Shown here: positions 6,960 to 53,840 of the stretch, piece after piece
Layout of the letters: each line of letters starts with the position of its first letter
How positions within the stretch are numbered: position 1 is the stretch's first letter
Sequence record: MT887289.1
From: Escherichia phage SME50
Reading direction: 5' to 3' (one strand)
Length of the DNA stretch: 64,000 nucleotides
Program-made: the position numbers and the translations under genes
The notes under the pieces: generated by a model
Seen by the model: the letters and a program-made list of their open reading frames with translations, nothing else
Told to the model about the DNA's origin: nothing
Database searches by the model: none

Positions 6960-7400
6960 TTAGAAAGGTTTTCTACGTTGCTTGTTAATATTAGCTTTCA
7001 TAGCAGCTAAGTGGTTTTGCTGTTCAATTAGTCGTGAACGTTCTTGGTGGCTAAGTGCCATAGTATTCACATTCTCAATCGCTTGAGTGGCTTGCTTTAA
7101 AGCACGACCAATCTTACCAGACATTTTACGTTTTGCAATAGTTGCTTGATGCTTAGGTTCAACCACACGATAACCAACACCCATTGAAGCAACCAGATAA
7201 ATCTTCTCTTCTTTAAGAAGCTTTTCAATAAACTTCTCAAGTCGGTTTAGACGTGTAAGTGCATAAGCCTTCATTTCATCTTCGTACTTAACAATGTCAC
7301 CTTGATAAGTTGGCTTCACAATACCTAAGAAGGTGTCCATCTCAGAATGTGATACAGTGTCACCGTAACTAAACTTTGCTGCTAATGCTTTTGTATTCAT
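6960..7400 (-). CDS. hypothetical protein
   Basis: 146 aa; flanked by the two homologous repeat loci. Confidence 0.5.
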   Translation of the reverse strand: MNTKALAAKFSYGDTVSHSEMDTFLGIVKPTYQGDIVKYEDEMKAYALTRLNRLEKFIEKLLKEEKIYLVASMGVGYRVVEPKHQATIAKRKMSGKIGRALKQATQAIENVNTMALSHQERSRLIEQQNHLAAMKANINKQRRKPF

Positions 7401-7402
7401 AA

Positions 7403-8008
<606 letters not shown>

Positions 8009-8057: not shown

Positions 8058-8400
8058 TAGAAACTTGGTAGATTTTTAACGTGGCTACTACCATCCACCC
8101 ATACCTCACATCACCATACTATACCTGACCGGACCTAACCAAACTCCACAGCACCATACATCACATCACACAACCTTATTAAAAGACCCTCTTCAAAGAC
8201 CTTTTAAAAAGGTAAGTCTCATTTTAATGTAGCTGAGACTAACTACCCATACTGTACCGCACCTGACCCGACCTGACCAGACCTAACATTACCGTGCAAC
8301 ACCGTACCGAACAGAACATTGCCATACCTCGCATCACTTAAAAACCCTCTTAGAAGACTCTTAAGTGATGCTGGTGAGTACCCGTGGGTCTATGCTGCTC
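8058..8400. repeat. repeat locus 2 (homologous to locus 1)
   Basis: hairpin tggtag...ctacca (locus 1 has tggcag...ctgcca); (NNACC)n arrays; same conserved block caaccttattaaaagaccctcttcaaagaccttttaaaaaggtaagtctcattttaatgtagctgagactaactaccc. Confidence 0.8.
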
Positions 8401-8434
8401 AGTATACTCACCAAATTTTCTATGTCAACAACTT

Positions 8435-9574
8435 TTATTCATAATCTCGTATAACCAGCCCAACAGGGAACTGTAAAGACCCCTTACGAGTCATCTTCTG
8501 GAACTGAACAGTTAAAGGTTTCCCGATAAACTCTTCAGGATGTTCAGCAAGATACTGTTTCTTCTCGTGTGTAGTTTTCCATGAGACATCTACAAAGACG
8601 TTAGGAAGAGTCTCTACAACGAACTTGCCATGACCACGCTTATCAGTCTTTACACCAGTCACTTTAAACTCTTCAGTGTGCATCTTCTTGTGCTTAATCA
8701 AGAAGTATGAACGGTGACAACACTCATAGAAGGAGTCTTCAGAGATTGAACGGTACATTGCACCTTCAAACTTAGCTTCAACCCACTTATCATGAGCTTC
8801 ATCAAACTCTTCCCAAGAATTTACACGACGAGACTTAACAGGGATAACTTTACAGCCATCTCTAAAGTCATTCAATGGTGAAGTCTCAATAATATCTCTA
8901 CGCTCAGGCCACGTCTTAGTACTGTCACAGATATCGTACCAGTAAAATTTGAGCAAGTGTCTGTCAGGATTGTCTTCATTTTTAATCATGGAGACGATAT
9001 CTTCTAAGTCCCACCCATGAGCATAAATCTCTCCATCAAATTCATCAACATCTTTGTGGAGCCTTAACATTGCCATAATGTCAGGTATTAGCTCAGTAGG
9101 TATTTTATAAACAGTATTCTCACGAGAGTATGCTGTAAATACACTACCAATGCTTAAGTGCCTTGAAATCCTACAACGGACACCATCAAGTTTCGGTTGA
9201 GCATCAGCAGGGAACTTCAGATACTTTGCATGACTAACCTTTGCAGCATCATGAGCAAGCTGTACACCCACCTTCTCAGTATTCTGTGCAGACTCTTTTG
9301 TGTAAGCATAACCTTTGCGGTCAACCTGCTTTTTATACTTTGCAGCAACTTCAAAGAGAGCTTGCTGTTCAGCGTTACGCTCATTCTTTTTACCGATGTT
9401 TTTAGGTTCTGCTGTATACTCTTCAAACATCATCTTGCCATTTTCTTTACCGTAGGTTGTAATAACTTTGTCACCTACAGCTACACATGACCAGACGTTG
9501 AAAGAGCCGTCTTTATTTTGTTTGTACAGTATTGTCATTTTATTCCTCTGAGTGATACCAAGTATTGCAAGCAT
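8435..9574 (-). CDS. ATP-dependent DNA ligase
   Basis: 379 aa; motif I KxDGxR present as PKLDGVRC; size like T7-type ligases. Confidence 0.65.
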   Translation of the reverse strand: MLAILGITQRNKMTILYKQNKDGSFNVWSCVAVGDKVITTYGKENGKMMFEEYTAEPKNIGKKNERNAEQQALFEVAAKYKKQVDRKGYAYTKESAQNTEKVGVQLAHDAAKVSHAKYLKFPADAQPKLDGVRCRISRHLSIGSVFTAYSRENTVYKIPTELIPDIMAMLRLHKDVDEFDGEIYAHGWDLEDIVSMIKNEDNPDRHLLKFYWYDICDSTKTWPERRDIIETSPLNDFRDGCKVIPVKSRRVNSWEEFDEAHDKWVEAKFEGAMYRSISEDSFYECCHRSYFLIKHKKMHTEEFKVTGVKTDKRGHGKFVVETLPNVFVDVSWKTTHEKKQYLAEHPEEFIGKPLTVQFQKMTRKGSLQFPVGLVIRDYE

Positions 9575-43816: not shown

Positions 43817-44602
43817 ATGGGTATTGTAAAAATTATCAATGGGGATATCTTCTCAGCATTTGATAAAGGTAAGTTTGATATCATTGGTCACGGTTGCAAC
43901 TGTATGAACTTAATGGGTGCAGGTATCGCTGACAAGATTTCTAAACTTTACCCAAAAGCATATGAGACTGATACAGAAGTTTATCTGTATGCAGGAGGTA
44001 TAGGTCACAAACCCTGTGAAAATTTACTAGGCAACTTCTCTGTAGCACGTTTAAAACAAGGACGTATAGCTAACCTTTACACTCAGCTTAAGACTGGTAA
44101 AGATGCCCGATACAGTGCTTTAGAGTCATCTTTGAAACAGCTTAACAGATACTGTGAAGTCAATCAGTTGAAGAAAGTTGGGTTACCTATGATTGGTGCA
44201 GGTATCGGTGGACTAGACCCTCAAGCCGTCACAGTTATCATTAATCAGGTGATGAAGAGTGTAGATGTGTATCTGTATGTCTACGAAGGAGAGATGTACC
44301 ACAAGTTACGCTCAGGTTGGAAGAACTACTGTGAACCAGAATACTTTGCAGGTGTAGTAGTGTTCACTGATGATGCAGTTACCCTCTTCAGACGAAGAAA
44401 AGGTAAGATACATCAAAGTAACCCTCCGGTTGAAAAGATGTCTCTAAGTAACGCTCTAGTTACCCACCTGTCGAAGAGCAATCACAGAATTGCAGTAACA
44501 TTTGGCAGTGATGCAGATACATATATCTATGCAAGAACTGATGAGGATGTTGAGGAAATTTTCTCTTCACCGGAAGTAACCTTCTTAGACGCAAAGAACT
44601 AA
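43817..44602 (+). CDS. macro domain protein (ADP-ribose binding/hydrolase fold)
   Basis: 261 aa; INGDIF...DIIGHGCNCMNLMGAGIADKI and second Gly-rich loop LPMIGAGIGGLDP match macro-domain signature. Confidence 0.6.
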   Translation: MGIVKIINGDIFSAFDKGKFDIIGHGCNCMNLMGAGIADKISKLYPKAYETDTEVYLYAGGIGHKPCENLLGNFSVARLKQGRIANLYTQLKTGKDARYSALESSLKQLNRYCEVNQLKKVGLPMIGAGIGGLDPQAVTVIINQVMKSVDVYLYVYEGEMYHKLRSGWKNYCEPEYFAGVVVFTDDAVTLFRRRKGKIHQSNPPVEKMSLSNALVTHLSKSNHRIAVTFGSDADTYIYARTDEDVEEIFSSPEVTFLDAKN

Positions 44603-44675
44603 GAAACTCTGTAGAATATTCACAATAGGTTAAGCCTTTCTTATCTGGTAAATTTTTCAGGTAAGGAGGGCTTTT

Positions 44676-44860
44676 TCATTTCAGGATTGTGCAGGTAGAG
44701 TTCTGGACAGAAATCTGTAGAGAAAATTTTGAACTCCAAAGAGAAAATTCATTTTCAAACTGTGCAGGTAATCTCCAAAGAGCTTTTTCATTTTCAAAAC
44801 GTGCAGACCCCGCTCAGGTCGGGCAAGAAAAATCATTTTAGAATTGTGCAGGTAGGTGGG
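44676..44860. repeat. four direct repeats of a roughly 20-nt motif ending in ttgtgcagg
   Basis: ttttcatttcaggattgtgcaggta / cattttcaaactgtgcaggta / cattttcaaaacgtgcaga / cattttagaattgtgcaggta(ggtgggtgcaggtgg). Confidence 0.6.
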
Positions 44861-45030
44861 TGCAGGTGGGGATGTCGCCATTTCTCACAAGGCTACCACA
44901 TCTGAAAAGAAAAGTCAACAGAAAAATTTGTAGCGGATTGAAAAATAATTCTTGATTGTAGTTCTGTTTTGTGGTAGTCGCGTGCGCCCGTTTCATTACA
45001 GTTTTTGCAAAAATATTTTTAAAATTCCTA

Positions 45031-45059
45031 TTGACTCTTTGAATATGGTTATCTAATAT
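45031..45059 (+). promoter_or_regulatory. sigma70-like promoter heading the small-gene array
   Basis: -35 ttgact, 17-nt spacer, -10 taatat. Confidence 0.55.
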
Positions 45060-45109
45060 TTGCATCAGACGGGCAATCAAGCCCACTTCCTAAACTGGAG
45101 AATCAAAAA

Positions 45110-45316
45110 ATGCTTTACAGTCGTGAATTGATGGTTACAACTAACGTTAACACAAAGGTAAAACGTTTTTATATGCAAGTGTGCGGCGCATGGCGTAGAA
45201 TATCAGAAGCTGATTATTGCAACTATGTAGAAACGGCAATCAATTCTAATTGCTACCTTACGAAGAATACAAAGCGACATATAAAACAGACAGCGGTTTA
45301 CTATTACGATATATAA
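45110..45316 (+). CDS. array ORF A, hypothetical
   Basis: 68 aa; RBS ctggag. Confidence 0.45.
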   Translation: MLYSRELMVTTNVNTKVKRFYMQVCGAWRRISEADYCNYVETAINSNCYLTKNTKRHIKQTAVYYYDI

Positions 45317-45406
45317 AAAGTACTTTACAGGGGGCTTAAAAGCTGATATCTTAAGCCCCAGATAAAGAGCTTTACTTAATTAACCCTTAAACTAGGAGAT
45401 TCAAAA
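45317..45406 (+). promoter_or_regulatory. type-1 leader cassette (GC hairpin plus conserved RBS leader)
   Basis: agtactttacagggggcttaaaagctgatatcttaagccccagataaagagctttacttaattaacccttaaactaggagattcaaaa-ATG. Confidence 0.7.
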
Positions 45407-45787
45407 ATGGCTTATCGTGCACCTAAATTCATCAACAAAGACAACTTTCGCAACGCACTGGAGAAGTCACTTGATGAAAATTTTAAAGGTAACATTATCG
45501 TTGTTCACGCATTCAATTTTAAGTATGATGTAAACGGGAATAGAATCAACCATTACACAGCAACCATGTTAGATGGTACGCTATCAAGTGAAAAAGCTGT
45601 ACTGAATGCACTTGCAGGACGTGGTAAAAACCTGATAAGATGCGATAAGAGACGTTATCAGGGTGGCGCATATGGTTATGATGATGCTGTTTATCATCTT
45701 GAAAATATGGGCTATTCAGTGGAAAAAGCTGGAGTGTCTCAAATAATCGGCAGTGACGGCTATGTGACAATTTTCAAAATTAACTAA
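45407..45787 (+). CDS. array ORF B, hypothetical
   Basis: 126 aa. Confidence 0.5.
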   Translation: MAYRAPKFINKDNFRNALEKSLDENFKGNIIVVHAFNFKYDVNGNRINHYTATMLDGTLSSEKAVLNALAGRGKNLIRCDKRRYQGGAYGYDDAVYHLENMGYSVEKAGVSQIIGSDGYVTIFKIN

Positions 45788-45878
45788 TAAAGTACTTTAC
45801 AGGGGGCTTATAGTTCGATAAAGTAAGCCCCAGATAAAGAGCTTTACTTAATTAACCCTTAAACTAGGAGATTCAAAA
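45788..45878 (+). promoter_or_regulatory. type-1 leader cassette
   Basis: same unit; hairpin variant ggggcttatagttcgataaagtaagcccc. Confidence 0.7.
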
Positions 45879-46169
45879 ATGGCTATTATTAAAAACGTTG
45901 TAATTCCTGCAAAAACTCGTGATGACGCTCGCATCATGGCGAAAAAGTTAGGCGGGAAAGTGGTTGACAACGGAAAACAAACTGCTGTAAGGTGGAACGT
46001 GAAGGCGGATAAACAAATGAATTTAAAAAATTCACCAATAAACCTTTTTACATGTGTAAACACTATCGGGAAAACGAATGTATACACTAAAAAGGCATAT
46101 ATCAGACGCATCGCCATGACGTCACCTATTCGCACAATGAGAAGTCATGCAAAGCTGAAAATTAAGTAA
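45879..46169 (+). CDS. array ORF C, hypothetical basic protein
   Basis: 96 aa. Confidence 0.5.
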   Translation: MAIIKNVVIPAKTRDDARIMAKKLGGKVVDNGKQTAVRWNVKADKQMNLKNSPINLFTCVNTIGKTNVYTKKAYIRRIAMTSPIRTMRSHAKLKIK

Positions 46170-46259
46170 TAGAGTACTTTACAGGGGGCTTAAAAGCTGA
46201 TATCTTAAGCCCCAGATAAAGAGCTTTACCACTCAATCCTTAAACTAGGAGATTCAAAA
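46170..46259 (+). promoter_or_regulatory. type-1 leader cassette
   Basis: same unit. Confidence 0.7.
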
Positions 46260-46772
46260 ATGAAAACTGTAGACGCTACCTTTGAAGTTGTAAAAGAAAA
46301 ATTTTCCATCATTTACGAAGCTGTCAATTGCTACGAAGCAAGCCATAATCTTGATAATTGGAAGTTTACAGATGACCATCAAGGCGGTGTGACTATTAAA
46401 AACCCCAACTGTCAGCGTAATGGATTTAAATATGCAATTCCTTTACATTACAGCCTTAAACAGCTTTCAATTGACTATGCAAAACAAGGCCGGGAAAATC
46501 CATCGAAAGAGGCTTACATCAGCTTACAGAAAGAACTAGAAAGAGATTTAGAGGCTTCAGAATATAACATCGCCGCGAAAGTTGTAGATGCAAACGGTAG
46601 CACGGTTTTAGAGAGTTTTTATATTGGTTATGCTTTCGATTGGTGCTACAGTGACGGCGATGATTTAGATGACAGACTAAAAGAGGAAGTGAACAACGCA
46701 GACGCAGAATCTGAAGTATTAGAACGCTTGGAAGCATTAAAAGATTCAGTGATGAATATCTTTAAGAACTAA
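46260..46772 (+). CDS. array ORF D, hypothetical acidic protein
   Basis: 170 aa. Confidence 0.5.
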   Translation: MKTVDATFEVVKEKFSIIYEAVNCYEASHNLDNWKFTDDHQGGVTIKNPNCQRNGFKYAIPLHYSLKQLSIDYAKQGRENPSKEAYISLQKELERDLEASEYNIAAKVVDANGSTVLESFYIGYAFDWCYSDGDDLDDRLKEEVNNADAESEVLERLEALKDSVMNIFKN

Positions 46773-46863
46773 ATAGACCTCTTTACACGGGGCTAACAAG
46801 CGGATATGATAGCCCCAGATAAAGAGATTTATCAAATTAACCCTTAAACTAGGAGATTCAAAA
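46773..46863 (+). promoter_or_regulatory. type-1 leader cassette (diverged hairpin)
   Basis: hairpin ggggctaacaagcggatatgatagcccc with compensatory stem changes. Confidence 0.65.
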
Positions 46864-47160
46864 ATGAAACTATCAAATAAAGTCCGTGAAAATCTAAGCA
46901 AGTTGCTTAATAAAATTGATTTCATTGAAACATCAAGGAATAGCCATGATGTTATGGAATGGTTACACGGAAAAATCAAAGGCCGTCGTGTAGTGATTTG
47001 CTTATGGAATAGTTGCAGGGAATATAAAAAACCTGTATTACAAGTCAATATCTATGATGATACTTTTAAAAGCCCTGTAAAGTCTAAAAGCGATTTATTA
47101 GAATCTTATGAGATAACTGTAAATGGCAAGGTATCACGTAAAGAGGAAGCACCATGTTAA
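46864..47160 (+). CDS. array ORF E, hypothetical
   Basis: 98 aa. Confidence 0.5.
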   Translation: MKLSNKVRENLSKLLNKIDFIETSRNSHDVMEWLHGKIKGRRVVICLWNSCREYKKPVLQVNIYDDTFKSPVKSKSDLLESYEITVNGKVSRKEEAPC

Positions 47161-47486
47161 TGATGGGTATCACTGCAATCATTGCCATTATAGCACTTTA
47201 CAAGGCTTATAGCGCATATAATTTGGCAAGTAAGGCAATCACGCAGCAGGTCAATAATAACCTTGTAATGAGCTTTCTGGAGCGTTTAAGCGATGAACAA
47301 ATAAAACGGTTAGAAATGAGCTTCAGATTTCAATCAAAAACTTATCAAATCAGCGACATTTTCAAAGATGATTTTCAGCTCGTCGATGATTATAACTCTC
47401 TGATAAATGCTTTAAATATCAGTGATTTAAAAGATTATCATGCTGTAATAGTTCAAGAATTGAGCAAACGAAAACAAAATTCTTGA
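47154..47486 (+). CDS. array ORF F, membrane protein
   Basis: 110 aa; N-terminal TM MLMMGITAIIAIIALY. Confidence 0.45.
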   Translation: MLMMGITAIIAIIALYKAYSAYNLASKAITQQVNNNLVMSFLERLSDEQIKRLEMSFRFQSKTYQISDIFKDDFQLVDDYNSLINALNISDLKDYHAVIVQELSKRKQNS

Positions 47487-47575
47487 CACTGATTTTTAGA
47501 TAGATTAAATTACTCATCAACGGGGAGGGATTAACCTTCCCACTAAGTAAAGTCCTTAAACTAGGAGATTCGAAA
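47483..47575 (+). promoter_or_regulatory. type-2 leader cassette (promoter plus 5' hairpin plus RBS)
   Basis: -35 ttgaca, 17 nt, -10 taaatt; then hairpin ggggagggattaaccttccc; then actaagtaaagtccttaaactaggagattcgaaa-ATG. Confidence 0.7.
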
Positions 47576-47734
47576 ATGATTCAAATAGGTGATAAAGTTG
47601 TCTGGAACGATATAGACAATGATTTATGCACAAAAATTGTAATTGTCTTAGAGCTTGATTATATAATTGGTGTTGCAACTGTTGCAGATAATGATATAAT
47701 CTTTGATGTTTTAATCAGTGAGCTATCGAAATAA
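47576..47734 (+). CDS. array ORF G, small protein (below ORF-track cutoff)
   Basis: 52 aa; preceded by type-2 cassette. Confidence 0.4.
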   Translation: MIQIGDKVVWNDIDNDLCTKIVIVLELDYIIGVATVADNDIIFDVLISELSK

Positions 47735-47757
47735 GCCTTAAACTAGGAGATTCGAAA

Positions 47758-48030
47758 ATGTATACTACTAACAACGGTCGCACTTTGAACGTAACCCTGC
47801 GCCACTATGTGAACGGTGTAATGCACTTCGAGGATTTACAAGCCGAACAACATATCTTGGATTGGCAAGTAGCAGGACTCCAAAAAACTGCTACAGGATA
47901 CGGGAAAAAGATTCCAACTAGTTGGAAAGTATACTACGAAGGGCGTTTGCGCAGAATTTATCAAGATGTATACAGTAATAGCGCATCAAGTTACATCATA
48001 GTAAAAGGTAAAAAGCTGCATTTAGTATAA
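47758..48030 (+). CDS. array ORF H, hypothetical
   Basis: 90 aa; conserved RBS leader ccttaaactaggagattcgaaa. Confidence 0.5.
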   Translation: MYTTNNGRTLNVTLRHYVNGVMHFEDLQAEQHILDWQVAGLQKTATGYGKKIPTSWKVYYEGRLRRIYQDVYSNSASSYIIVKGKKLHLV

Positions 48031-48115
48031 AGTACTTTACAAGGGGCTTATAGTTCGATAAAGTAAGCCCCAGATAAAGAGCTTTAACACTCAATCCTAA
48101 ATTGGAGATTCTAAA
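48031..48115 (+). promoter_or_regulatory. type-1 leader cassette
   Basis: same unit. Confidence 0.7.
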
Positions 48116-48520
48116 ATGGCTATTAATAATCGTGAGTTATCAATCTTAAAAGCACGTTTGACCGTTAATCGGATTAATGTTATTACATCATCAGCACCGG
48201 ATGAGACATTGCACAACATTATCGGGAAGATTCAAAGTGTTATCTTAGACGTTGAAAACGTAAAAAACTCACTGGCTGACGTTGCAGCAGGTATCACGCT
48301 AGACGGTGCGCAATATGAAATGGCTGACATGTTAGGCAAATCTAAGGTAATGAATAAAGAGTTAGACTTGAAAATGTTTAGATTTGCTGTTAAAGTGTGG
48401 CTATCTGTCGAGTATGACGCAAATTTTGCAATCGCTGACTTTTTCGCAACATGGTTGCAACGTAATTTAACAAATCATGATTTCCGTGATGTCTGTGATG
48501 CAATTTATGCGGAACTCTAA
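48116..48520 (+). CDS. array ORF I, hypothetical
   Basis: 134 aa. Confidence 0.5.
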   Translation: MAINNRELSILKARLTVNRINVITSSAPDETLHNIIGKIQSVILDVENVKNSLADVAAGITLDGAQYEMADMLGKSKVMNKELDLKMFRFAVKVWLSVEYDANFAIADFFATWLQRNLTNHDFRDVCDAIYAEL

Positions 48521-48533
48521 AAAAAAAAAACTG

Positions 48534-48627
48534 TTGACACTGATTTTTAGATATATTAAATTACGCATTAACGGGGAGGGAATGAACTTCCCCACTAAGT
48601 AAAGTCCTTAAACTAGGAGATTCTAAA
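48534..48627 (+). promoter_or_regulatory. type-2 leader cassette
   Basis: ttgaca-17-taaatt promoter then hairpin ggggagggaatgaacttcccc and conserved RBS leader. Confidence 0.7.
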
Positions 48628-48831
48628 ATGGCTATTATTAACGGCTTAACCATTGAAACAACACACATCAAAGACATTAAAGTTGGTGATGTAGTCCTTT
48701 CCCACGGCGTAGAGAAAACTGTTACTGCAAAGGATATTAAAGAGGATTCTTTCATGGGTAGGACTCTCTTCGGTGATTCTTATTGCTTGGGTTATCTTGC
48801 AGTTTTAAAAGTTGTCAAAAATAACCGTTAA
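48628..48831 (+). CDS. array ORF J, hypothetical
   Basis: 67 aa. Confidence 0.45.
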   Translation: MAIINGLTIETTHIKDIKVGDVVLSHGVEKTVTAKDIKEDSFMGRTLFGDSYCLGYLAVLKVVKNNR

Positions 48832-48923
48832 AGTACTTTACAAGGGGCTTATAGTTCGATAAAGTAAGCCCCAGATAAAGAGCTTTACCACTCAATCAAG
48901 TCCTTAAACTAGGAGATTCAAAA
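48832..48923 (+). promoter_or_regulatory. type-1 leader cassette
   Basis: same unit. Confidence 0.7.
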
Positions 48924-49487
48924 ATGAAATGCTATCACGGCACTACTCTGAAAAACTTTGTAAACCTGCTGAATGGTGGCGACAAGCCTGAAGGAATCTG
49001 GAACTGCTCCTACATGGATGATTGTTTCTACGTTTACCCAATGAACAAGGTTATCAAAACGGAATGTCTGGAAGATGAGGAAGATTCTTATATCCGTGAA
49101 CGCTGCATTCAAAGCGCCTTAGAGTCTGGACTTATTACGGCAGCTTTCCAAATGGAAACGCAGGAAGTGATTGTTATCGAAATGGATATCCCAGAGGAAG
49201 AACTTGAGGACGATTATTCTTGTGACAACATGAGCGAAATTGCCAGCTTTACCGGATACTTTGATAAGAATTGGATTATCGGTATACACTCGACGAAATT
49301 TAGTGCGATGTATGCGCCTTTCTTTGTACCGGATACAACTAACCGTAATTTAGGATATATTGACGATGATTTGTTAAGTATGGCGAAAATTGTACAGAAT
49401 AGCGGTGATAGTTCCGTGTTTTGTGACCTACTTGATAAAATCACGGCAAACATCACAGAACGCAATTTAAAAGACTTTTTAGGTTAA
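48924..49487 (+). CDS. array ORF K, hypothetical acidic protein
   Basis: 187 aa. Confidence 0.5.
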   Translation: MKCYHGTTLKNFVNLLNGGDKPEGIWNCSYMDDCFYVYPMNKVIKTECLEDEEDSYIRERCIQSALESGLITAAFQMETQEVIVIEMDIPEEELEDDYSCDNMSEIASFTGYFDKNWIIGIHSTKFSAMYAPFFVPDTTNRNLGYIDDDLLSMAKIVQNSGDSSVFCDLLDKITANITERNLKDFLG

Positions 49488-49550
49488 TCAGTACAAAGAC
49501 ACCAACTTCCAACTTAAGGCCCGTACAGGGCCATTTAGAGGGCTTCAATC

Positions 49551-49784
49551 ATGCTTACAACCATTTACCTCATCCTTTCCATTTGTAATGGTCATTCATG
49601 CGATTTTAAAGGGCTTGAGGAGTTTACAGGGAGTAAAGAAAATGTTATTCATACCTGTCAGATAGCAAGGCAAGACTATCCCGCCAGTGATGATATACAA
49701 TGTTACTTTAAGACAGAAGATAATGACGGCGTTTATTTTGATAGCGTAGACGGTCAATATGAAATTATCATTGAAAAAGACTAG
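49551..49784 (+). CDS. array ORF L, small protein with N-terminal hydrophobic segment
   Basis: 77 aa; atypical leader, no cassette. Confidence 0.4.
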   Translation: MLTTIYLILSICNGHSCDFKGLEEFTGSKENVIHTCQIARQDYPASDDIQCYFKTEDNDGVYFDSVDGQYEIIIEKD

Positions 49785-49874
49785 ACAAGCCTGATAAAAG
49801 TCTGTAAATTGTCAATCAACGGGGAGGTAATAACCTCCCTACTAAACAAAATCCTTAAACTAGGAGATTCGAAA
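49785..49874 (+). promoter_or_regulatory. type-2 leader cassette (partial promoter)
   Basis: taaatt ... ggggaggtaataacctccct hairpin plus conserved RBS leader. Confidence 0.6.
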
Positions 49875-50216
49875 ATGGCTTATGTAACCGTAATTACCAA
49901 TAAAGAAGATTCATCTTGGTCAACTCAAGTAAGTGACAAGATGTCACCTATGCAGTGCCTAAAATACTTTGAGCAATGGAACAAAGGTGAGGAAACAAGC
50001 CCCTTTCAAGTAATGCAGATTATCCATACAGACAACGAAGGGAATAAAACTGTTTTGAATAGTGAGTACTATGCAACCAGATTCGAAACGAGAAGTAAAG
50101 CAATGAAACTCTTACGTGAATCCGGTTATTCTCATATTGCCGCGCTAATCTGGGATGACCTCCTAAAAAGTCAGCGTATCAGTTATGTAAAACCTGAAAA
50201 AATATTCATCAGTTAA
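49875..50216 (+). CDS. array ORF M, hypothetical
   Basis: 114 aa from ATG 49875; tracked ORF begins 49809. Confidence 0.5.
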   Translation: MAYVTVITNKEDSSWSTQVSDKMSPMQCLKYFEQWNKGEETSPFQVMQIIHTDNEGNKTVLNSEYYATRFETRSKAMKLLRESGYSHIAALIWDDLLKSQRISYVKPEKIFIS

Positions 50217-50436
50217 TCAACAACTTACAAAAAACTTTTAAAAAAGTGTTGACAATGCCCCTTGACATTGGTAACTTTGTTCGAGGGGGTTTATCTAAAA
50301 GGGATTAACTTAAAAGATTCTTTATAGATAAACTTAAAAAATTGCTTGCAATCAGATATCAAAACAAGTAAATTACTAATCAACGGGAGGGATAACCTCC
50401 CCACTAAGTAAAGTCCTTAAACTAGGAGATTCAAAA
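50217..50436 (+). promoter_or_regulatory. promoter region plus type-2 leader cassette
   Basis: gttgacaatgccccttgacattgg, acttaaaag motifs, then cgggagggataacctcccc hairpin and RBS leader. Confidence 0.6.
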
Positions 50437-50967
50437 ATGAACAAATTTCAAGCTATCAATTACATCCGCTCAAATAGTGTTATGTCAAAGCCTGTTAAAG
50501 ACACCTATGAATTTCGTTGCAATGGTGTACACTTTGCAACCATCACCAAATCAGAAAACGGGGCTTATTACGTTCATCGCCGTAATGTTGCAACCGTTGT
50601 AGTCTCTCACTTTATGCAAGCTGTCGCGGAACTTCTCCCGATGTTTTTAGGGCTTTACTTAGATGAGTGTAAGCACATTCATAACCATGTTAAAAGCCTT
50701 TTAAACGGTTATAAAATGGCTTATGAGCGTTCTATCAAGTCCTTAAACAAGTTTTACAACGCACCTGAAAACACCGTATCAATGGCATACGCTGTAAAGG
50801 GTGAGGCGGTGAGTCTCTTCGAAGTGGAAGAAATCGAGCTTTATGACCATCGCCCCAATGGTTACGCTAAAACTCTCGGTGAAGGTTTAACGTTCAATAT
50901 CAAGAACTTAGAAAAAACTTTAAAAGATATTGAAAAAGATATTGACGAGACAATCAAAAGTCTGTAA
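50437..50967 (+). CDS. array ORF N, hypothetical
   Basis: 176 aa. Confidence 0.5.
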   Translation: MNKFQAINYIRSNSVMSKPVKDTYEFRCNGVHFATITKSENGAYYVHRRNVATVVVSHFMQAVAELLPMFLGLYLDECKHIHNHVKSLLNGYKMAYERSIKSLNKFYNAPENTVSMAYAVKGEAVSLFEVEEIELYDHRPNGYAKTLGEGLTFNIKNLEKTLKDIEKDIDETIKSL

Positions 50968-51033
50968 ATTGTCAATCAACGGGGAGGGAATGACCTTCCC
51001 CACTAAGTAAAGTCCTAAACTGGAGTTATCAAG
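50968..51033 (+). promoter_or_regulatory. type-2 leader cassette
   Basis: taaattgtcaatcaacggggagggaatgaccttcccc... Confidence 0.6.
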
Positions 51034-51297
51034 ATGGAAAACGTCGAACTGACCACACTTTTACAAATTGCAACCGACAAAGAGGATGTAGCATTATTCC
51101 ACCGTATCGAAAGTGATTTGTTCAATGGTGAAATCATTAAAGAATCTTACGAAGTGGTCGGATTCAAAGATGGTAAATCATTTGGATTCTTTGACCTCGA
51201 CAAAGGCAACGCTATTACAGAGTATGATGTTTTATCTTGTGAGATTCTGACAAAATACAACGAAAAAAGACTTGCAACATACGCCAACATGCAGTAA
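51034..51297 (+). CDS. array ORF O, hypothetical acidic protein
   Basis: 87 aa. Confidence 0.5.
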   Translation: MENVELTTLLQIATDKEDVALFHRIESDLFNGEIIKESYEVVGFKDGKSFGFFDLDKGNAITEYDVLSCEILTKYNEKRLATYANMQ

Positions 51298-51365
51298 ATT
51301 ACTAATCAACGGGGAGGGAATGACCTTCCCCACTAAGTAAAGTCCTTAAACTAGGAGATTCTAAA
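51298..51365 (+). promoter_or_regulatory. type-2 leader cassette
   Basis: taaattactaatcaacggggagggaatgaccttcccc... Confidence 0.6.
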
Positions 51366-51614
51366 ATGGCAACTATCCGCGCAATTGTAAATTCTTATGG
51401 CTGCTACACTCTGGACGTTAAATTTGATATAGGTGGGACCGATGAGTGTTTCGAACTGGTGAAAACAGTCATTAAACAAGTTATCCCAGACTATAACCCT
51501 ACTGATGACTTCTGGAAAGATGCAGTAAAAGAGGCATTGAACGATGAATATCATTACCATTATTGGGGTGATTTGATTGTCTCCCTGTACTACAATAAAC
51601 AAGGTTGCAACTAA
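51366..51614 (+). CDS. array ORF P, hypothetical
   Basis: 82 aa. Confidence 0.5.
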   Translation: MATIRAIVNSYGCYTLDVKFDIGGTDECFELVKTVIKQVIPDYNPTDDFWKDAVKEALNDEYHYHYWGDLIVSLYYNKQGCN

Positions 51615-51651
51615 TCGGCGCAACGGGGCAAATAGCCCCAGATACCTTTAT

Positions 51652-51676
51652 AGCCCCTTAAATGGGGCTTTTTTAC
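51652..51676 (+). terminator. intrinsic terminator ending the plus-strand array
   Basis: agccccttaaatggggct plus tttttac; preceded by second hairpin ggggcaaatagcccc. Confidence 0.6.
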
Positions 51677-53240
51677 GTCTTATCAAATCCTATACAATCC
51701 TTTTCCTTTCCTTTCCAGAGTCTTACTAGACCTTAAAAGCAATAACTCTATAGCTTACTCTATAACCTTTTATCAAATCAACTTAAATATAAGCCCATAA
51801 CCCGAAAGGGAAGGGCAACCGTTTAAACGCTCTATAAAGCTCTATAACAGCCTTATCAACCTAACTTAAGGGATTGCATTAACTCACCCTAAAAAGCCCT
51901 TTATAAAGCTTCCTAGAGGCTTAAAAGAATCTTATAAGGGTGTAAGCTTTATCATCTCGTTAGTTCCTTGTGAATATCTAGAAAGGGCTTGTTAGTGTCT
52001 TAAAAGTATGTTATAGGGGCTATAAAGTAGATTAAAAGTTACTTCAAAGTTACGTAAATGCTAGCCCCCTTAACATTTTCTTAACAATTTCTTAACAAAT
52101 CCTACATAGTTATGCTTTTAAGGTACTTGTTAGCAACTTGTTAGCCCCTTGTTAAATCTCTGTTAATACCTCGTAAAAGCCTTGTAAGAGTCTTTGGCAT
52201 AGCCTTTAAAGCCTCTGTAAAGCCCTATAAAGAGCTTTCTACATAGTTGGGGTGTAATTACTAGGAAGAGACTAAAAAGAGCTTATAAGGAGCTATAAAG
52301 GGCTTTTAAGAGGGCTATTTAAAGAATCACTAAGAGAGAAAGGGAATGATAAGAAAAGAGATAGTGACCATGTTAACAGCTTGTTAAAAAGGTTAAACAC
52401 TTGTTAGGAACTTGTTAATTATCTTAACAAAATAACTCTTTAAAATTAACTTGTTAGCTCTTGTTAGTCATCTGTTAAGCCTCTGTAAAGACTATGTATC
52501 AACTGTTAAGAAACTGTTAAGCTCTTGTTAGTTCTGTTAAGAATCTGTTAAGACCTCTGAAGAGATGTTAAGAGGATGTAAGAACTGTTAAGAGATTGTT
52601 AATGATATTTTAAAATTCTGCAAAGGGGATGTTACAGGGATGTTAAGGGCTACCAAGCAGATATACATCCTAGACAGATATTTTTCAGTTCCTTCAAAGA
52701 CCCTAAAAAATGACTTGATAGTCCTATTTTATAAAAATTTTAAAATTCTGAATAATTACCTAGACAGTCTTCTAAAAATACAGGCATAAACAGGTTTATA
52801 AGATACCTTGTTAGTACCGTGTTAGACCTTGTGAGATAAGGTCTGTAAAGATATTCCTGTTAAGTTTGTTAAAACAGTCTATATAGAGGCTTAGTAATAC
52901 CTAGTGAACACCTATAGAGGGTAACATAGCTGACATAGAGATTAAGAGGTGTATAGGGGCTTCTAAGAGGGTGTAGAGAGATGGTTAAGGTGATTGTATA
53001 GGTTGTTAAGAAGGATTGTTAGAGGGCTATTTAGAAGGGCTATACAGAGGGGCTATTAAGACCACTAGATAGATACTAAGATACTATATAGTACTATATA
53101 ACTATATATATAGAGAGTAAGCTTAAGAAGGTTGTTAAGAAGGTTAGATATTTTATTCACATATGATGGTGACCCAGAGGTTGGGACAACCGATAAAATT
53201 TTATAAAAATTAAAAAGCCCCCAATTAAGGAGGCTCTTAA
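51676..53240. repeat. ORF-free iteron-rich region (candidate origin, packaging or protein-binding array)
   Basis: dozens of short motifs in both orientations: (c/t)tgttaag, ttgttag, ctataaag, cttataagg, ctgtaaag, cttaaaag; AT-rich tract ctatatagtactatataactatatatatagag. Confidence 0.75.
53205..53240 (-). terminator. putative terminator for minus-strand block
   Basis: minus-strand reading gagcctccttaattgggggct plus tttttaattttt. Confidence 0.4.
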
Positions 53241-53246
53241 GATATT

Positions 53247-53840
53247 TTAAACCAGTGTTTCCAGAACTGTCTTCAGTGATGACTTGGTTGTCTGATAAAA
53301 ATGAGTAAATCCATTGTTGTTATCGAATACCTGCATCATGATATCATCTCCCTTGATTGGGTACACTCGGATATCATAGTGGAACCCGTTAAAGACAGCA
53401 GAACCATTACAGAATGAACTAAAGTCATCCACTGAGATGTACTCTTCGTGACCTGTGATTTTTATACAGACACCTTTGCTCGGTCTCTTAGGGTTAATAT
53501 CTTCCATCACAGACATATTCTGTCCACCAAGAGATACCATAGTGACCACTTTACGGTTCTTCTGTTTAAAGTACATCTTAACTTTCTGTAAAGTATCTTC
53601 ATAGAACGGATAAGACTTCTCTACAAAGATTCCTTCAAGTGGCTCTTTACCATTTCTAACTTCTCTGATATGACGTACTGAGAAGATAAGTTGCTCTAGT
53701 ATGTCAAGGCTTTCTTTGGAGAGTGCTTCCCGAACATCAGCCCAGTCAAGGACTAGGTAGTTGCCTTCAACTTCTTTCAAGTTATCTTTTTCCATAGCTA
53801 TCACACCATTATTGTAAAACTTGGTAATCCGGTACTGCAA
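53247..53840 (-). CDS. hypothetical protein
   Basis: 197 aa. Confidence 0.5.
   Translation of the reverse strand: MQYRITKFYNNGVIAMEKDNLKEVEGNYLVLDWADVREALSKESLDILEQLIFSVRHIREVRNGKEPLEGIFVEKSYPFYEDTLQKVKMYFKQKNRKVVTMVSLGGQNMSVMEDINPKRPSKGVCIKITGHEEYISVDDFSSFCNGSAVFNGFHYDIRVYPIKGDDIMMQVFDNNNGFTHFYQTTKSSLKTVLETLV

What the first reader, a model, noticed from the sequence alone, without database searches (positions are those of the whole stretch)
45031..51676. Array of 16 small plus-strand genes with modular conserved leader cassettes (candidate host-takeover/anti-defence island)
From 45110 to 51614 there are 16 small ORFs (52-187 aa, none with recognisable domains by eye). Almost every one is preceded by one of two conserved non-coding cassettes ending in the same leader ccttaaactaggagattcaaaa-ATG. 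Type 1 (six copies) is a GC hairpin ggggctta...taagcccc with variable loop and compensatory stem changes, not followed by a U-tract. Type 2 (six copies, some partial) is a ttgaca-17-taaatt promoter followed by a 5' hairpin gggaggg...ccttccc, again with covariation. The repeated 60-90 bp units would let individual genes be swapped by homologous recombination. The architecture resembles host-takeover or moron islands of other virulent phages, which often hold anti-defence genes.
Basis: seen in the sequence. Interest (0 to 1): 0.75.

Follow-up and report, generated by a model that had tools for sequence, protein, structure and literature searches.

The report
Promoter-hairpin gene cassettes in Felix O1-like phage
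This is the early accessory-gene array of a Felix O1-like phage, in which nearly every small gene is preceded by a repeated host-type promoter, hairpin and ribosome-site cassette, and gene gain and loss between relatives occurs at these cassettes, much like the PeSL cassettes of T4-like phages.

Summary
The window is a Felixounavirus; its best match is phage Shy, at 96% identity. Positions 45110-51614 hold 16 plus-strand ORFs. None has a Pfam match, and 15 of 16 fall in PHROGs of unknown function.

There are six type-1 and six type-2 cassettes, plus a shared leader in 11 near-exact copies, all confined to this array.

All six type-2 copies are complete promoters. Four of them draw part of the promoter from the upstream gene's 3' end.

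The array therefore carries 13 promoters between two terminators.

- **Type 1:** folds as a three-tier hairpin conserved across four Ounavirinae genera. It shows compensatory changes, and 73 G·U departures against 4 A·C, which points to plus-strand RNA.
- **Type 2:** places a hairpin about 3 nt from the predicted 5' end. Covariation support for it is weak.

Relatives differ by whole gene units. Homology breaks fall in cassettes (27 of 40 against 24% expected), and type-1 copies evolve in concert.

The closest known system is the PeSL of T4-like phages, but the geometry differs. The repeats had been noted in 2010 and 2015 without interpretation.

The anti-defence role is untested. Most Bas63 homologues are dispensable on laboratory hosts.

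The parts
44632..44680 (+). Intrinsic terminator that closes the upstream unit (left border of the array)
   Evidence: Terminator scan. Same sequence as Felix O1 terminator t13 (PMC3185647).
45031..45109 (+). First array cassette: promoter TTGACT-17-TAATAT (45031-45059), hairpin GGGC-AATCAA-GCCC (45071-45084), leader CCTAAACTGGAGAATCAAAAA
   Evidence: (-7.6 kcal/mol, z -2.4). The same hairpin type is used in SUSP2 cassettes.
45110..45316 (+). w1, 68 aa, unknown function (phrog_5293)
45317..45406 (+). Type-1 cassette 1: -35 TTTACA 45324-45329, -10 TATCTT 45347-45352 (TGn), three-tier hairpin 45317-45373, leader
   Evidence: (-20.7 kcal/mol, z -3.25).
45407..45787 (+). w2, 126 aa, unknown (phrog_4495); absent from Felix O1
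45788..45878 (+). Type-1 cassette 2: -35 45796-45801, -10 TAAAGT 45819-45824, hairpin 45789-45845
   Evidence: (-21.2 kcal/mol, z -4.1).
45879..46169 (+). w3, 96 aa, unknown (phrog_5089); its 3' end differs among relatives; tandemly duplicated in Michonne
46170..46259 (+). Type-1 cassette 3: -35 46178-46183, -10 TATCTT 46201-46206
46260..46772 (+). w4, 170 aa, unknown (phrog_4190)
46773..46863 (+). Type-1 cassette 4 (variant allele): -35 46782-46787, -10 TATGAT 46805-46810, hairpin 46774-46831 with a 7-bp upper stem
   Evidence: (-21.5 kcal/mol, z -5.5).
46864..47160 (+). w5, 98 aa, unknown (phrog_4401)
47154..47486 (+). w6, 110 aa, hydrophobic N terminus, overlaps w5 (ATGTTAA); the Bas63 homologue g103 is costly to lose
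47483..47575 (+). Type-2 cassette 1: -35 TTGACA 47483-47488 (contains the w6 stop TGA), -10 TAAATT 47506-47511, hairpin 47522-47541, leader
   Evidence: (-13.4 kcal/mol, z -3.3; minus strand -7.9, z -0.65).
47576..47734 (+). w7, 52 aa, no PHROG; absent from Bas63, AYO145A, Barry, Felix O1, Mordin, Michonne and SUSP2
47735..47757 (+). Leader-only unit before w8. It is identical, including the rare G, to the leader before w7, so two identical leaders flank the w7 indel.
   Evidence: the Bas63 alignments overlap by 27 nt.
47758..48030 (+). w8, 90 aa, unknown (phrog_3436); paralog of w10
48031..48115 (+). Type-1 cassette 5: -35 48036-48041, -10 TAAAGT 48059-48064; leader variant CCTAAATTGGAG
48116..48520 (+). 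w9, 134 aa, unknown (phrog_4327); Bas63 homologue g105 mildly costly to lose in MG1655
48534..48627 (+). Type-2 cassette 2: -35 TTGACA 48534-48539, -10 48557-48562, hairpin 48573-48593
48628..48831 (+). w10, 67 aa (phrog_3623); in Mordin, Michonne and SUSP2 this slot holds the unrelated gene x20
48832..48923 (+). Type-1 cassette 6, chimeric: type-1 promoter and hairpin (-35 48837-48842, -10 48860-48865) joined to the type-2 style leader AAGTCCTTAAAC
48924..49487 (+). w11, 187 aa, found only in Ounavirinae-sized contigs; function unknown
49488..49550 (+). Non-standard intergenic region: hairpin GGCCC-GTACA-GGGCC (49518-49532), own RBS
   Evidence: Annotated as 'potential terminator' in Barry.
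49551..49784 (+). w12, 77 aa (phrog_4640)
49782..49874 (+). Type-2 cassette 3: -35 TAGACA 49782-49787 (its TAG is the w12 stop), -10 49805-49810, hairpin 49821-49840
   Evidence: (-13.9 kcal/mol, z -5.6).
49875..50216 (+). w13, 113 aa (phrog_4318)
50217..50345 (+). Extra spacer with two TTGACA hexamers (50249, 50262) and a CCCC...GGGG inverted repeat; role unknown
   Evidence: A promoter is annotated here in AYO145A.
50346..50436 (+). Type-2 cassette 4: -35 TTGCAA 50346-50351, -10 50369-50374, hairpin about 50384-50400
50437..50967 (+). w14, 176 aa (phrog_4725)
50942..51033 (+). Type-2 cassette 5: -35 TTGACG 50942-50947 inside w14; -10 TAAATT 50965-50970, whose TAA is the w14 stop; hairpin 50981-51001
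51034..51297 (+). w15, 87 aa (phrog_7022); absent from Bas63, PK6, NBEco004, Felix O1 and SUSP2
   Evidence: flanking alignments overlap by 64 nt of cassette.
51272..51365 (+). Type-2 cassette 6: -35 TTGCAA 51272-51277 inside w15; the TAA of the -10 (51295-51300) is the w15 stop; hairpin 51311-51331
51366..51614 (+). w16, 82 aa (phrog_4559)
51652..51676 (+). Intrinsic terminator (right border of the array), preceded by a degenerate type-1-like hairpin at 51627-51641
   Evidence: Equals Felix O1 t23.

Best explanation
**What it is.** This is the hyperplastic early-gene array of a Felix O1-like myovirus (subfamily Ounavirinae). It is one plus-strand unit bounded by two intrinsic terminators. Most genes in it are autonomous expression modules. 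The DNA from each stop codon to the next ATG is a standard cassette with three parts:
1. A host sigma-70 promoter.
2. A G+C-rich hairpin that acts in the plus-sense RNA.
3. A fixed ribosome-binding leader.

**Type 2.** The promoter is (TTGACA-like)-17-TAAATT. Transcription is predicted to start about 3 nt before the hairpin. The mRNA therefore carries a 5'-terminal stem-loop of the kind known to protect E. coli mRNAs from 5'-end-dependent decay.

**Type 1.** The promoter is TTTACA-17-TAnnnT, often with an extended -10 (TGn). It is interwoven with a three-tier hairpin: the 5' arm lies in the spacer and the -10 lies in the loop. That hairpin can only form in transcripts reading through from upstream. 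There it sits just after the preceding stop codon. It most likely serves as an intercistronic 3' stabiliser, attenuator or processing site.

**Second role.** The cassettes are 60-100 bp direct repeats. They also serve as homology patches for recombination, so single genes are gained, lost, duplicated or replaced without disturbing their neighbours. This is the logic described for PeSL cassettes of T4-like phages.

**The genes.** The 16 products are accessory proteins of unknown function.

**Shown versus inferred.**
- Shown: the sequence anatomy, conservation of structure, plus-strand bias of wobble pairs, unit-wise gene variation, homology breaks in cassettes, and concerted evolution.
- Inferred: promoter activity, start sites, what the hairpins do to RNA, and the recombination mechanism.
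For: **Identity and synteny**
- Searches identify the phage and show the same layout in four genera: macro-domain gene, gap, array, terminator, then a long non-coding stretch.

**Promoters**
- All six type-1 and four of six type-2 sites pass the sigma-70 scan. The region has 42 sites against 26.7±4.4 in shuffles.
- Across four genera the -35 TTTACA is near-invariant. The 'loop' positions T-A...T are the only invariant loop bases.
- Of 31 distinct type-1 alleles, 28 keep TAnnnT at a 16-18 bp spacer, 25 of them at exactly 17. Sixteen have TGn.
- In type 2 the shared repeat starts at the -10. Three unrelated gene 3' ends each supply a -35-like hexamer exactly 17 bp away.
- The T4/PST PeSL promoter consensus is TTTACW-N17-TAYWAT (PMC4122927).

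**Type-1 hairpin**
- Folding energy is -20.7 to -21.5 kcal/mol, z -3.3 to -5.5.
- The same three-tier fold is the dominant prediction among the 51 distinct copies, and is seen in all four genera.
- 96.2% of cells are paired, against at most 59% when partners are slid. The covariation score is 0.121 against 0.067, with 0 of 500 shuffles reaching it.
- Compensatory changes occur at G-C to U-A (Erwinia phage), C-G / U·G / U-A, and G-C to U-A in the outer stem.
- Departures from Watson-Crick pairing are 73 G·U against 4 A·C.
- The plus strand folds better in 38 of 51 copies, by about 3-10 kcal/mol in most copies from the non-Felixounavirus genera.

**Type-2 hairpin**
- All 49 variants fold, starting 3-5 nt into the modelled transcript (most at 4), at -7.6 to -16.6 kcal/mol.
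- Different stems occupy the same place in SUSP2, in the window's first cassette and in phiEa21-4.

**Exchange at cassettes**
- The gene map shows unit-wise presence and absence, slot replacement (w10 versus x20) and reordering in phiEa21-4.
- Mordin and Michonne are 99.1-100% identical across the array. Their only structural differences are a 60-nt type-1 core and a 430-bp [cassette+w3] duplication.
- The w7 and w15 indels are flanked by overlapping cassette homology of 27 and 64 nt.
- 27 of 40 distinct homology-block ends fall in the stop-to-ATG segments, which make up 24% of the array (p about 5e-9).
- Between genera, type-1 copies at the same slot are no more alike (0.81) than copies at different slots (0.81). 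Both are less alike than copies within one genome (0.85-0.88).

**Expression and dispensability**
- Felix O1 RT-PCR detected array transcripts, several peaking at 5 min.
- In Bas63, most array genes score as dispensable.
Against: - No transcript 5' or 3' ends have been mapped for any Ounavirinae phage. Literature searches found none.
- Type-1 -10 hexamers are weak, matching 3-5 of 6 positions.
- The TTTACA could in principle be conserved as the 5' half of the lower stem rather than as a -35.
- Type-2 covariation is weak. G-runs against C-runs still pair 83% when slid by one, and only 5 cells change on both sides.
- Many covarying cells come from a few changes shared by homogenised copies, so independent events are few.
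- The Michonne and Barry duplications have junctions at microhomology, not at a clean cassette-cassette crossover.
- Homology-block ends must fall in conserved intergenic DNA whenever a neighbouring gene is unrelated, so that enrichment test is not independent of the claim.
- The leader gives no extra predicted accessibility of the ribosome site: 0.51 against 0.52 for other genes in the window.
Confidence: 0.7

Rival explanations
1. The type-1 inverted repeat is a DNA operator. A dimeric phage or host repressor would bind GGGGCTTA...TAAGCCCC across the spacer and -10, shutting off the early promoters together. On this reading no RNA hairpin matters.
For: The palindrome overlaps the promoter core in every copy. 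Symmetric half-site changes would also look 'compensatory'. Coordinated shut-off of early genes is common in virulent phages (general knowledge).
Against: - Arm length and arm spacing are not fixed: stems run 7-12 bp and loops 4-14 nt, while the promoter spacing stays at 17.
- Departures from symmetry are 73 G·T against 4 A·C. An operator gives no reason for that bias, whereas plus-strand RNA does.
- Pairing extends into two further helices outside the promoter, including a G-C to U-A switch in the outer stem.
Confidence: 0.1
2. Type 1 is only an intercistronic RNA element: a terminator/attenuator, an RNase III- or RNase E-type processing site, or a 3' stabiliser, like the sites between T7 early genes. 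Its resemblance to a promoter is a by-product of the stem sequence. Transcription of type-1 genes would then come from upstream promoters only.
For: - The hairpin is long (about 19 bp in three tiers with a 3x3 internal loop) and conserved in four genera.
- CTTTA of the '-35' pairs with the invariant TAAAG.
- The -10 hexamers are weak.
Against: - Three independent promoter features coincide: a 5-of-6 match at -35, a 17-bp spacer in 25 of 31 alleles, and T-A...T as the only invariant loop bases, with TGn in 16 alleles.
- phiEa21-4 variants keep TTGCAA or TTTACA at 17 bp from GATTAT with a quite different stem and no TAAAG partner.
- There is no U-tract, so it is not a canonical terminator.
Confidence: 0.12
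3. The cassettes are alike only because selection keeps good expression signals. Gene gain and loss would then occur by ordinary illegitimate recombination that happens to be tolerated only between genes. The repeats would have no recombination role.
For: The two youngest rearrangements (Michonne, Barry) have microhomology junctions rather than clean cassette crossovers. Whole-gene indels are the only ones likely to survive selection.
Against: - Genome-specific variants are shared by all type-1 copies of a genome: C-G in Felixounavirus, U·G in Mooglevirus and Suspvirus, U-A at another pair in phiEa21-4. Slot-specific signal is lost between genera.
- Indels leave exactly one intact cassette, with 27-64 nt of overlapping homology.
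- Identical rare leader variants flank w7.
- There is a chimeric type-1/type-2 cassette.
Confidence: 0.12
4. One reading: the array is specifically an anti-defence or host-takeover island.
For: - The genes are early-expressed, small, variable and mostly dispensable.
- A macro-domain gene lies next door.
- Bas63 g107, the homologue of w11, is conditionally important in strain S17-1.
Against: - No protein has any recognisable domain, fold or solved relative.
- A text search of the PhageMaP preprint for the array gene names found only g107, and not as a counter or trigger of any tested defence system. The preprint's defence data table itself was not read.
Confidence: 0.3

Closest known systems
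PeSL (promoter-early stem-loop) cassettes of T4-like phages (Arbiol et al. 2010, PMC2839356; Comeau et al. 2014, PMC4122927)
   Same: [quoted passage not shown]
- They contain a sigma-70-type early promoter (PST/T4 consensus TTTACW-N17-TAYWAT), a GGGG...CCCC stem-loop and the Shine-Dalgarno sequence.
- They are clustered in a hyperplastic region of small non-essential ORFans.
- Indels, replacements and duplications between close relatives lie at the cassettes.
   Different: - The phage lineage is unrelated (Ounavirinae, not T4-like), and I noticed no sequence resemblance beyond the generic promoter hexamers and G/C-run stems. No direct sequence comparison was run.
- In PeSLs the stem-loop lies upstream of the promoter and was shown to terminate transcription. 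Here it lies inside the promoter (type 1) or downstream at the 5' end of the transcript (type 2), and has no U-tract.
- Here a fixed 22-25 nt leader is also part of the repeat.
- Promoter and terminator activity and mini-circles were shown for PeSLs. Nothing has been tested here.
Start-associated sequences (SAS/ESAS) of cluster K mycobacteriophages
   Same: Both are a conserved short sequence just upstream of the start codon of a subset of genes of unknown function. The authors of the Mordin genome made this comparison for the 26-bp leader CCAACAATCCTAAACTGGAGAATCTA (PMC4611695). From my own recollection, the extended form (ESAS) adds an inverted repeat upstream.
   Different: The host, phage group and sequence all differ. 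The SAS role is unknown. No promoter is part of the SAS definition as far as I recall.
RNase III processing hairpins between the early genes of phage T7, and 5'-terminal stabilising stem-loops such as the ompA leader (established knowledge, recalled)
   Same: The T7 sites are intercistronic hairpins with an internal loop in a sigma-70-transcribed early operon. They leave a protective 3' hairpin on the upstream message. A stem-loop within a few nt of the 5' end prolongs mRNA life in E. coli. This matches the predicted position of the type-2 hairpin.
   Different: No cleavage or half-life data exist here. The T7 sites do not contain promoters and are not repeated as recombination linkers.
Direct repeats listed in the Felix O1 genome paper (Whichard et al. 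2010, PMC3185647)
   Same: These are literally the same elements. The 57-bp repeat CTTTACATGGGGCTTAAAAGTCTGTAAAGTAAGCCCCAGATAAAGAGCTTTACCACT is type 1. The 39-bp repeat TTGACACTGGTTTTTAGATAGATTAAATTACACATCAAC is the type-2 promoter.
   Different: The paper reports them only as direct repeats. They are not among the promoters it lists, no hairpin or leader is noted, and no link to gene content variation is made.

Membership tests
PeSL cassettes (T4-like phages) | Sigma-70-like early promoter (-35, about 17 bp, -10) with an A/T-rich segment upstream | tested here: met
   Thirteen promoter-like sites with a 17-bp spacer. The -35 and T-A...T are conserved across four genera. An A-tract lies 5' of every type-2 -35. 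Activity has not been measured.
PeSL cassettes (T4-like phages) | Stem-loop located just upstream of the cassette's own promoter, acting as terminator/attenuator | tested here: not met
   In type 1 the hairpin overlaps the spacer and -10. In type 2 it follows the promoter. No U-tract is present. Termination cannot be tested with these tools.
PeSL cassettes (T4-like phages) | [quoted passage not shown] | tested here: met
   Type 1 starts 0-1 nt after the stop. In four of the six type-2 copies the stop codon lies inside the -35 or the -10. All cassettes end in GGAG-N8-ATG.
PeSL cassettes (T4-like phages) | Clustered in a hyperplastic region of small non-essential ORFs; indels and replacements between close relatives lie at the cassettes | tested here: met
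.
PeSL cassettes (T4-like phages) | Recombination between neighbouring cassettes yields excised mini-circles | not testable with these tools
   Needs inverse PCR or long-read data from infected cells.
PeSL cassettes (T4-like phages) | Occurs in T4-like myoviruses (common descent of the elements) | tested here: not met
   The host genome is a Felixounavirus. The cassette sequences occur only in Ounavirinae records.
Intrinsic (Rho-independent) terminators | G+C-rich hairpin followed directly by a U-tract | tested here: not met
   Only 44632 and 51652 (plus a weak site at 49303) qualify. No type-1 or type-2 hairpin does.
Known RNA families (Rfam 15) | Match to a curated covariance model | tested here: not met
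   No match with E up to 1 in 44000-53500 on either strand.
SAS of cluster K mycobacteriophages | Short conserved sequence immediately 5' of the start codon of a subset of genes | tested here: inconclusive
   The leader fits the description and was likened to SAS by Guan et al.. The SAS consensus and host differ, and the SAS literature was not examined here.

The most novel reading that the evidence does not exclude
The type-1 unit would be a truly bifunctional 60-nt element: the same bases are a host promoter in DNA and a three-tier processing/stabilising hairpin in read-through RNA. Each plug-in gene would then yield a discrete message whatever its neighbours. Together with the type-2 unit and the common leader, it would form a recombinase-free gene-cassette exchange system. 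That system would be shared by all Ounavirinae and would have arisen independently of the T4-like PeSLs.
Probability: 0.25. Interest if true: 0.6.

Novelty: new variant of a known kind. Interest (0 to 1): 0.45.

Why it matters
- **Second lineage.** A second, unrelated phage lineage appears to have a PeSL-like solution: standard promoter-hairpin-leader linkers that make small accessory genes both self-expressing and easy to swap. This would make that logic look like a general route to phage genome plasticity rather than a T4 peculiarity.
- **Unexplained repeats.** It gives a reading for repeats that have sat uninterpreted in Felix O1-type genomes since 2010.
- **Missing promoters.** It supplies 13 candidate early promoters for a phage whose authors could list only five candidate host-type promoters.
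- **Engineering sites.** It marks natural, insulated insertion sites for engineering these widely used therapeutic and biocontrol phages.
- **Genes to screen.** It delimits a set of fast-turnover early genes worth screening for host-directed functions.

Tried and rejected
1. **Protein domains.** Pfam found no match for any of the 16 proteins. PHROGs gave only unknown-function families.
2. **w11 in depth.** Homologues occur only in Ounavirinae-sized contigs. The AlphaFold2 model from 15 sequences was poor (pLDDT 58, pTM 0.61). Foldseek against the PDB gave a best E of 1.4. A profile search against PDB sequences gave a best E of 0.38. The hinted NAD-binding or ADP-ribosyltransferase-like fold (PhageMaP on Bas63 gp107) could be neither confirmed nor excluded.
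3. **Flanking genes.** Pfam on nine genes further up- and downstream of the array returned nothing at E ≤ 0.001. The adjacent upstream gene matched Macro in a separate search. Context therefore rests on synteny with annotated relatives.
4. **IMG/VR scan.** I anchored the scan on the type-1 flanks (CTTTACA-N26-34-GATAAAGAG). It returned mostly single chance hits plus copies of isolate genomes, so it added no diversity.
5. **Unusually open leader.** I tested whether the leader makes the ribosome site unusually accessible. Predicted unpaired probability was 0.51 against 0.52 for 47 other genes in the window (p = 0.48), so I rejected this.
6. **Type-2 covariation.** It is only marginal because the stem is a G-run against a C-run.
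7. **Rfam.** No match.
8. **Literature.** No paper links PeSLs to Felix-type phages, and there is no RNA-seq or TSS map for Felixounavirus. A retron Eco2 paper mentioning the genus was irrelevant.
9. **Mobile elements.** I considered MITE- or REP-like selfish repeats and rejected them. Every copy has one orientation and sits exactly between a stop codon and an ATG.
10. **RegB-type shut-off at GGAG.** I considered this but did not pursue it. The Erwinia phage leaders use AGGA, not GGAG.

Full report
**What the window is.** The 6.6-kb query matches 253 phage records, nearly all named Escherichia, Salmonella, Shigella or Citrobacter phages or Felixounavirus. The best match is vB_EcoM_Shy, at 96.1% identity over 100% of the query. 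The window is therefore part of a Felix O1-like myovirus genome. Only 3 of the 253 records cover at least 80% of the query in one piece. Many of the best-matching records cover only 55-75% of it, in up to ten pieces, so the locus is mosaic at population scale.

**Synteny.** Annotated relatives from all four Ounavirinae genera were examined: Felixounavirus, Mooglevirus, Suspvirus and Kolesnikvirus. All show the same layout: rIIA/rIIB, polynucleotide kinase, spanins, a macro-domain gene, a gap of about 400 nt, an array of 9-19 small plus-strand genes, a terminator, and then 1.2-1.7 kb with almost no annotated gene before minus-strand genes. In the window the macro-domain gene is 43817-44602 (PF01661, E 1e-7). 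The array is bounded by terminator-like sites at 44632 and 51652. These are the Felix O1 terminators t13 and t23 (PMC3185647).

**Check of the observation.**
- Sixteen plus-strand ORFs of 52-187 aa lie at 45110-51614.
- The leader CCTTAAACTAGGAGATTCnAAAATG occurs 11 times with at most 1 mismatch, only inside the array. None is expected by chance.
- There are six type-1 and six type-2 units at the stated places.
- The cassettes are found nowhere else in the 64-kb window.
- Similarity searches with either cassette type match only Ounavirinae-type records, with 1-10 places per record.

**Type 1 is also a promoter.** The consensus scan lists all six type-1 units as TTTACA-17-TATCTT, TAAAGT or TATGAT, matching 9-10 of 12 positions.
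- I aligned 34 distinct copies from four genera. The -35 is nearly invariant. Within the otherwise variable 'loop', the only invariant or near-invariant bases are T and A at the first two -10 positions, plus the T at the sixth.
- Of 31 distinct alleles of the 30 nt after the -35, 28 keep TAnnnT at a spacer of 16-18 bp, and 25 of these are at exactly 17. Sixteen have the TGn extended -10.
- phiEa21-4 has a second family with a quite different stem (GGGGTTAT/ATAACCCC). It is still placed as TTGCAA or TTTACA, 17 bp, GATTAT.
- The T4/PST PeSL promoter consensus is TTTACW-N17-TAYWAT (PMC4122927).

**Type 2 promoters are all complete.** Each has a -35 (TTGACA twice, TAGACA, TTGCAA twice, TTGACG) exactly 17 bp from TAAATT. 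The part shared between copies begins at the -10. The -35 and spacer are specific to each slot. In three cases they are the 3' end of the upstream gene:
- The w6 stop TGA lies inside TTGACA.
- The w12 stop TAG opens TAGACA.
- The w14 and w15 stops are the TAA of TAAATT.

Three unrelated coding ends each provide a -35-like hexamer at the right distance. That argues for selection on promoter function. With the first cassette (45031-45109), the array has 13 promoter-like sites for 16 genes and no canonical internal terminator. The scan lists one further weak terminator-like site, inside w11 at 49303, which I regard as chance.

**The type-1 hairpin.** Type 1 folds into a three-tier hairpin of 5+5+9 bp with a 3x3 internal loop. 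Its energy is -20.7 to -21.5 kcal/mol, z -3.3 to -5.5. The stop codon of the upstream gene abuts or enters the outer helix.
- The same fold is the dominant prediction among the 51 distinct copies and is seen in all four genera. A few copies show only part of it.
- I built a covariance model and aligned 79 plus-strand copies (49 distinct). In that alignment 96.2% of cells pair, against at most 59% with slid partners. The covariation score is 0.121 against 0.067 in shuffles, with 0 of 500 reaching it.
- The informative pairs are G-C to U-A in the Erwinia phage, C-G / U·G / U-A at another upper-stem pair, and G-C to U-A in eight copies of the outer helix.
- These changes are shared by all copies of a genome, so independent events are few.
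- Departures from Watson-Crick pairing are 73 G·U against 4 A·C.
- Outside Felixounavirus, the plus strand folds about 3-10 kcal/mol better than the minus strand in most copies.
- Stem length (7-12 bp) and loop length (4-14 nt) vary while the promoter spacing does not.
- Together these points favour a plus-strand RNA structure over a fixed-geometry protein operator.
- The predicted start of a type-1 transcript lies after the 3' arm. The hairpin can therefore form only in read-through RNA, where it follows the preceding gene.

**The type-2 hairpin.** It begins 3-5 nt (mostly 4) into the modelled transcript, which corresponds to about 3 nt from a start placed 7-8 nt after the -10.
- All 49 distinct variants fold, at -7.6 to -16.6 kcal/mol.
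- In the window copy at 47518-47553 the plus strand gives -13.4 (z -3.3) and the minus strand -7.9 (z -0.65).
- Formal covariation is weak because the stem is a G-run against a C-run: 92.9% paired against 83% when slid, and five double-change cells.
- The better argument is that different stems sit at the same position: GGGC/GCCC, GGGGAAG/CTTCCCC and GTGAGG/CCTCAC, and in phiEa21-4 GAGGGG/CCCCTC.
- A stem-loop within a few nt of the 5' end is an established mRNA stabiliser in E. coli (recalled knowledge). That role here is inferred.

**Exchange at cassettes.**
- A gene map of 13 genomes shows presence or absence of single units. Felix O1 lacks w2, w3, w7, w10, w11, w12 and w15. Bas63 lacks w7 and w15. 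PK6 and NBEco004 lack w15.
- The map also shows slot replacement (w10 against the unrelated x20), extra genes in Mooglevirus and Suspvirus, and a changed order in phiEa21-4.
- Against Bas63, the w7 and w15 indels begin and end at the ATG or stop codon. The flanking alignments overlap by 27 and 64 nt of repeated cassette.
- The two leaders flanking w7 share a rare G variant.
- Over nine comparisons, 27 of 40 distinct homology-block ends fall in the stop-to-ATG segments, against 24% expected (binomial p about 5e-9). This test is partly circular, because alignments must end in conserved DNA.
- Mordin and Michonne are 99.1-100% identical across the array. Their only structural differences are a 60-nt extra type-1 core and a 430-bp tandem duplication of cassette plus w3. 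The junctions there, and in the Barry repeat, are at microhomology rather than a clean crossover.
- Between genera, type-1 copies at the same slot are no more alike (0.81) than copies at different slots (0.81). Both are less alike than copies within one genome (0.85-0.88). This is concerted evolution.
- One window cassette (48832-48923) is a type-1/type-2 chimera.

**The proteins.**
- No Pfam match was found, and 15 of 16 fall in PHROGs of unknown function.
- w8 and w10 are paralogs.
- For w11, homologues occur only in Ounavirinae-sized contigs, the structure model is poor, and there is no fold or PDB match.
- I mapped the Felix O1 paper's gene numbers onto the array from the positions of its direct repeats. 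By that mapping, RT-PCR shows genes 16, 20, 21 and 22 (w4, w9, w13, w14) peaking at 5 min, and genes 17, 19 and 23 (w5, w8, w16) peaking at 25 min.
- In the PhageMaP data for Bas63, genes 98-111 are the array. Most score above zero, meaning dispensable, in MG1655 and S17-1.
- g103 (w6 homologue) scores -0.8 to -1.9. g105 (w9 homologue) scores about -0.7 to -0.95 in MG1655.
- g107 (w11 homologue) is reported as more needed in S17-1.
- A text search of the preprint for the array gene names found only g107, and not as a defence counter or trigger.

**Comparison with what is known.** The closest system is the PeSL of T4-like phages.
- Features met: promoter, stop-to-ATG span with the Shine-Dalgarno sequence, hyperplastic location, and indels at cassettes.
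- Features not met: stem-loop position, terminator form and lineage.
- Not testable here: mini-circles.
- It therefore works like a PeSL system but is not a member by descent or by geometry.
- The raw repeats were already printed in the Felix O1 paper as 'direct repeats'. The leader was noted in the Mordin announcement as 'reminiscent of SAS'. Neither paper recognised the promoter, the hairpin or the link to gene turnover.
- No paper in the searchable library connects PeSLs with Felix-type phages.

**Verdict.** The finding is real and well delimited. It is an early accessory-gene array built from promoter-hairpin-leader cassettes that also act as recombination linkers. That makes it a new variant of a known kind. 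The anti-defence label is a reasonable guess, but it has no support so far.

Noticed in passing
window 51677-53246: This 1.57-kb gene-free stretch lies right after the array terminator. It holds about 21 plus-strand and 5 minus-strand copies of TGTTA[AG]N (CTTGTTAG, CTGTTAAG), often 10-11 or 20-21 bp apart. All 8 window copies of CTTGTTAG and 7 of 9 copies of CTGTTAAG lie here. phiEa21-4 has a comparable repeat field at the same place (L004 13758-14948). Mordin, SUSP2 and Bas63 have a gene-free gap there. It could be a replication origin, packaging region or protein-binding field.
   Followed up: partly
window 44676-44851: Four copies of TCATTTYNRRANYKTGCAG (at 44676, 44749, 44788, 44833) lie between the upstream terminator and the first array promoter. 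A similar quartet, TCATTTTCAATTTGTGCATAG, occurs at the same place in the Erwinia phage (L004 about 6600-6760). Function unknown.
   Followed up: partly
window 43817-44602: The gene just upstream of the array encodes a 261-aa protein with a Macro (ADP-ribose binding/hydrolase) domain (PF01661, E 1e-7). It is conserved at this position in all four genera and scores as dispensable in Bas63 (g95).
   Followed up: no
window 47758-48030 and 48628-48831: w8 and w10 are paralogs within the array. They are the only pair of array genes that cluster together.
   Followed up: no
window 47154-47160: w5 and w6 overlap in ATGTTAA, which suggests translational coupling. This is the only gene junction in the array without any intergenic DNA. 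The Bas63 homologue of w6 (g103) is the array gene most costly to lose.
   Followed up: no
window 51627-51646: A degenerate type-1-like hairpin, GGGGCAAATAGCCCCAGATA, without a -35 or -10, lies just before the true terminator at 51652-51676. It may be a decayed cassette.
   Followed up: no
window 50217-50345: This 129-nt extra spacer between w13 and its type-2 cassette holds two TTGACA hexamers 13 bp apart and a CCCC...GGGG inverted repeat. In Mordin and Michonne a 46-aa ORF (x23) is annotated between w13 and w14.
   Followed up: no
L005 (Michonne) 7003-7867 against L003 (Mordin) 8127-9089: These two phages of the same species differ in the array only by a tandem duplication of cassette plus w3 (Michonne) and an extra 60-nt type-1 core flanked by CTTTACCAA (Mordin). 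The Michonne record is exactly 90,000 bp long, so an assembly artefact cannot be ruled out.
   Followed up: partly
public annotation of Bas63 genes 102, 103 and 106 in the PhageMaP tables: Small array genes carry BLAST-derived names such as 'tail sheath monomer', 'tail tube protein' and 'prohead assembly scaffold protein'. The same names appear on array genes in some GenBank records. These look like propagated misannotations of 65-110 aa early proteins.
   Followed up: no
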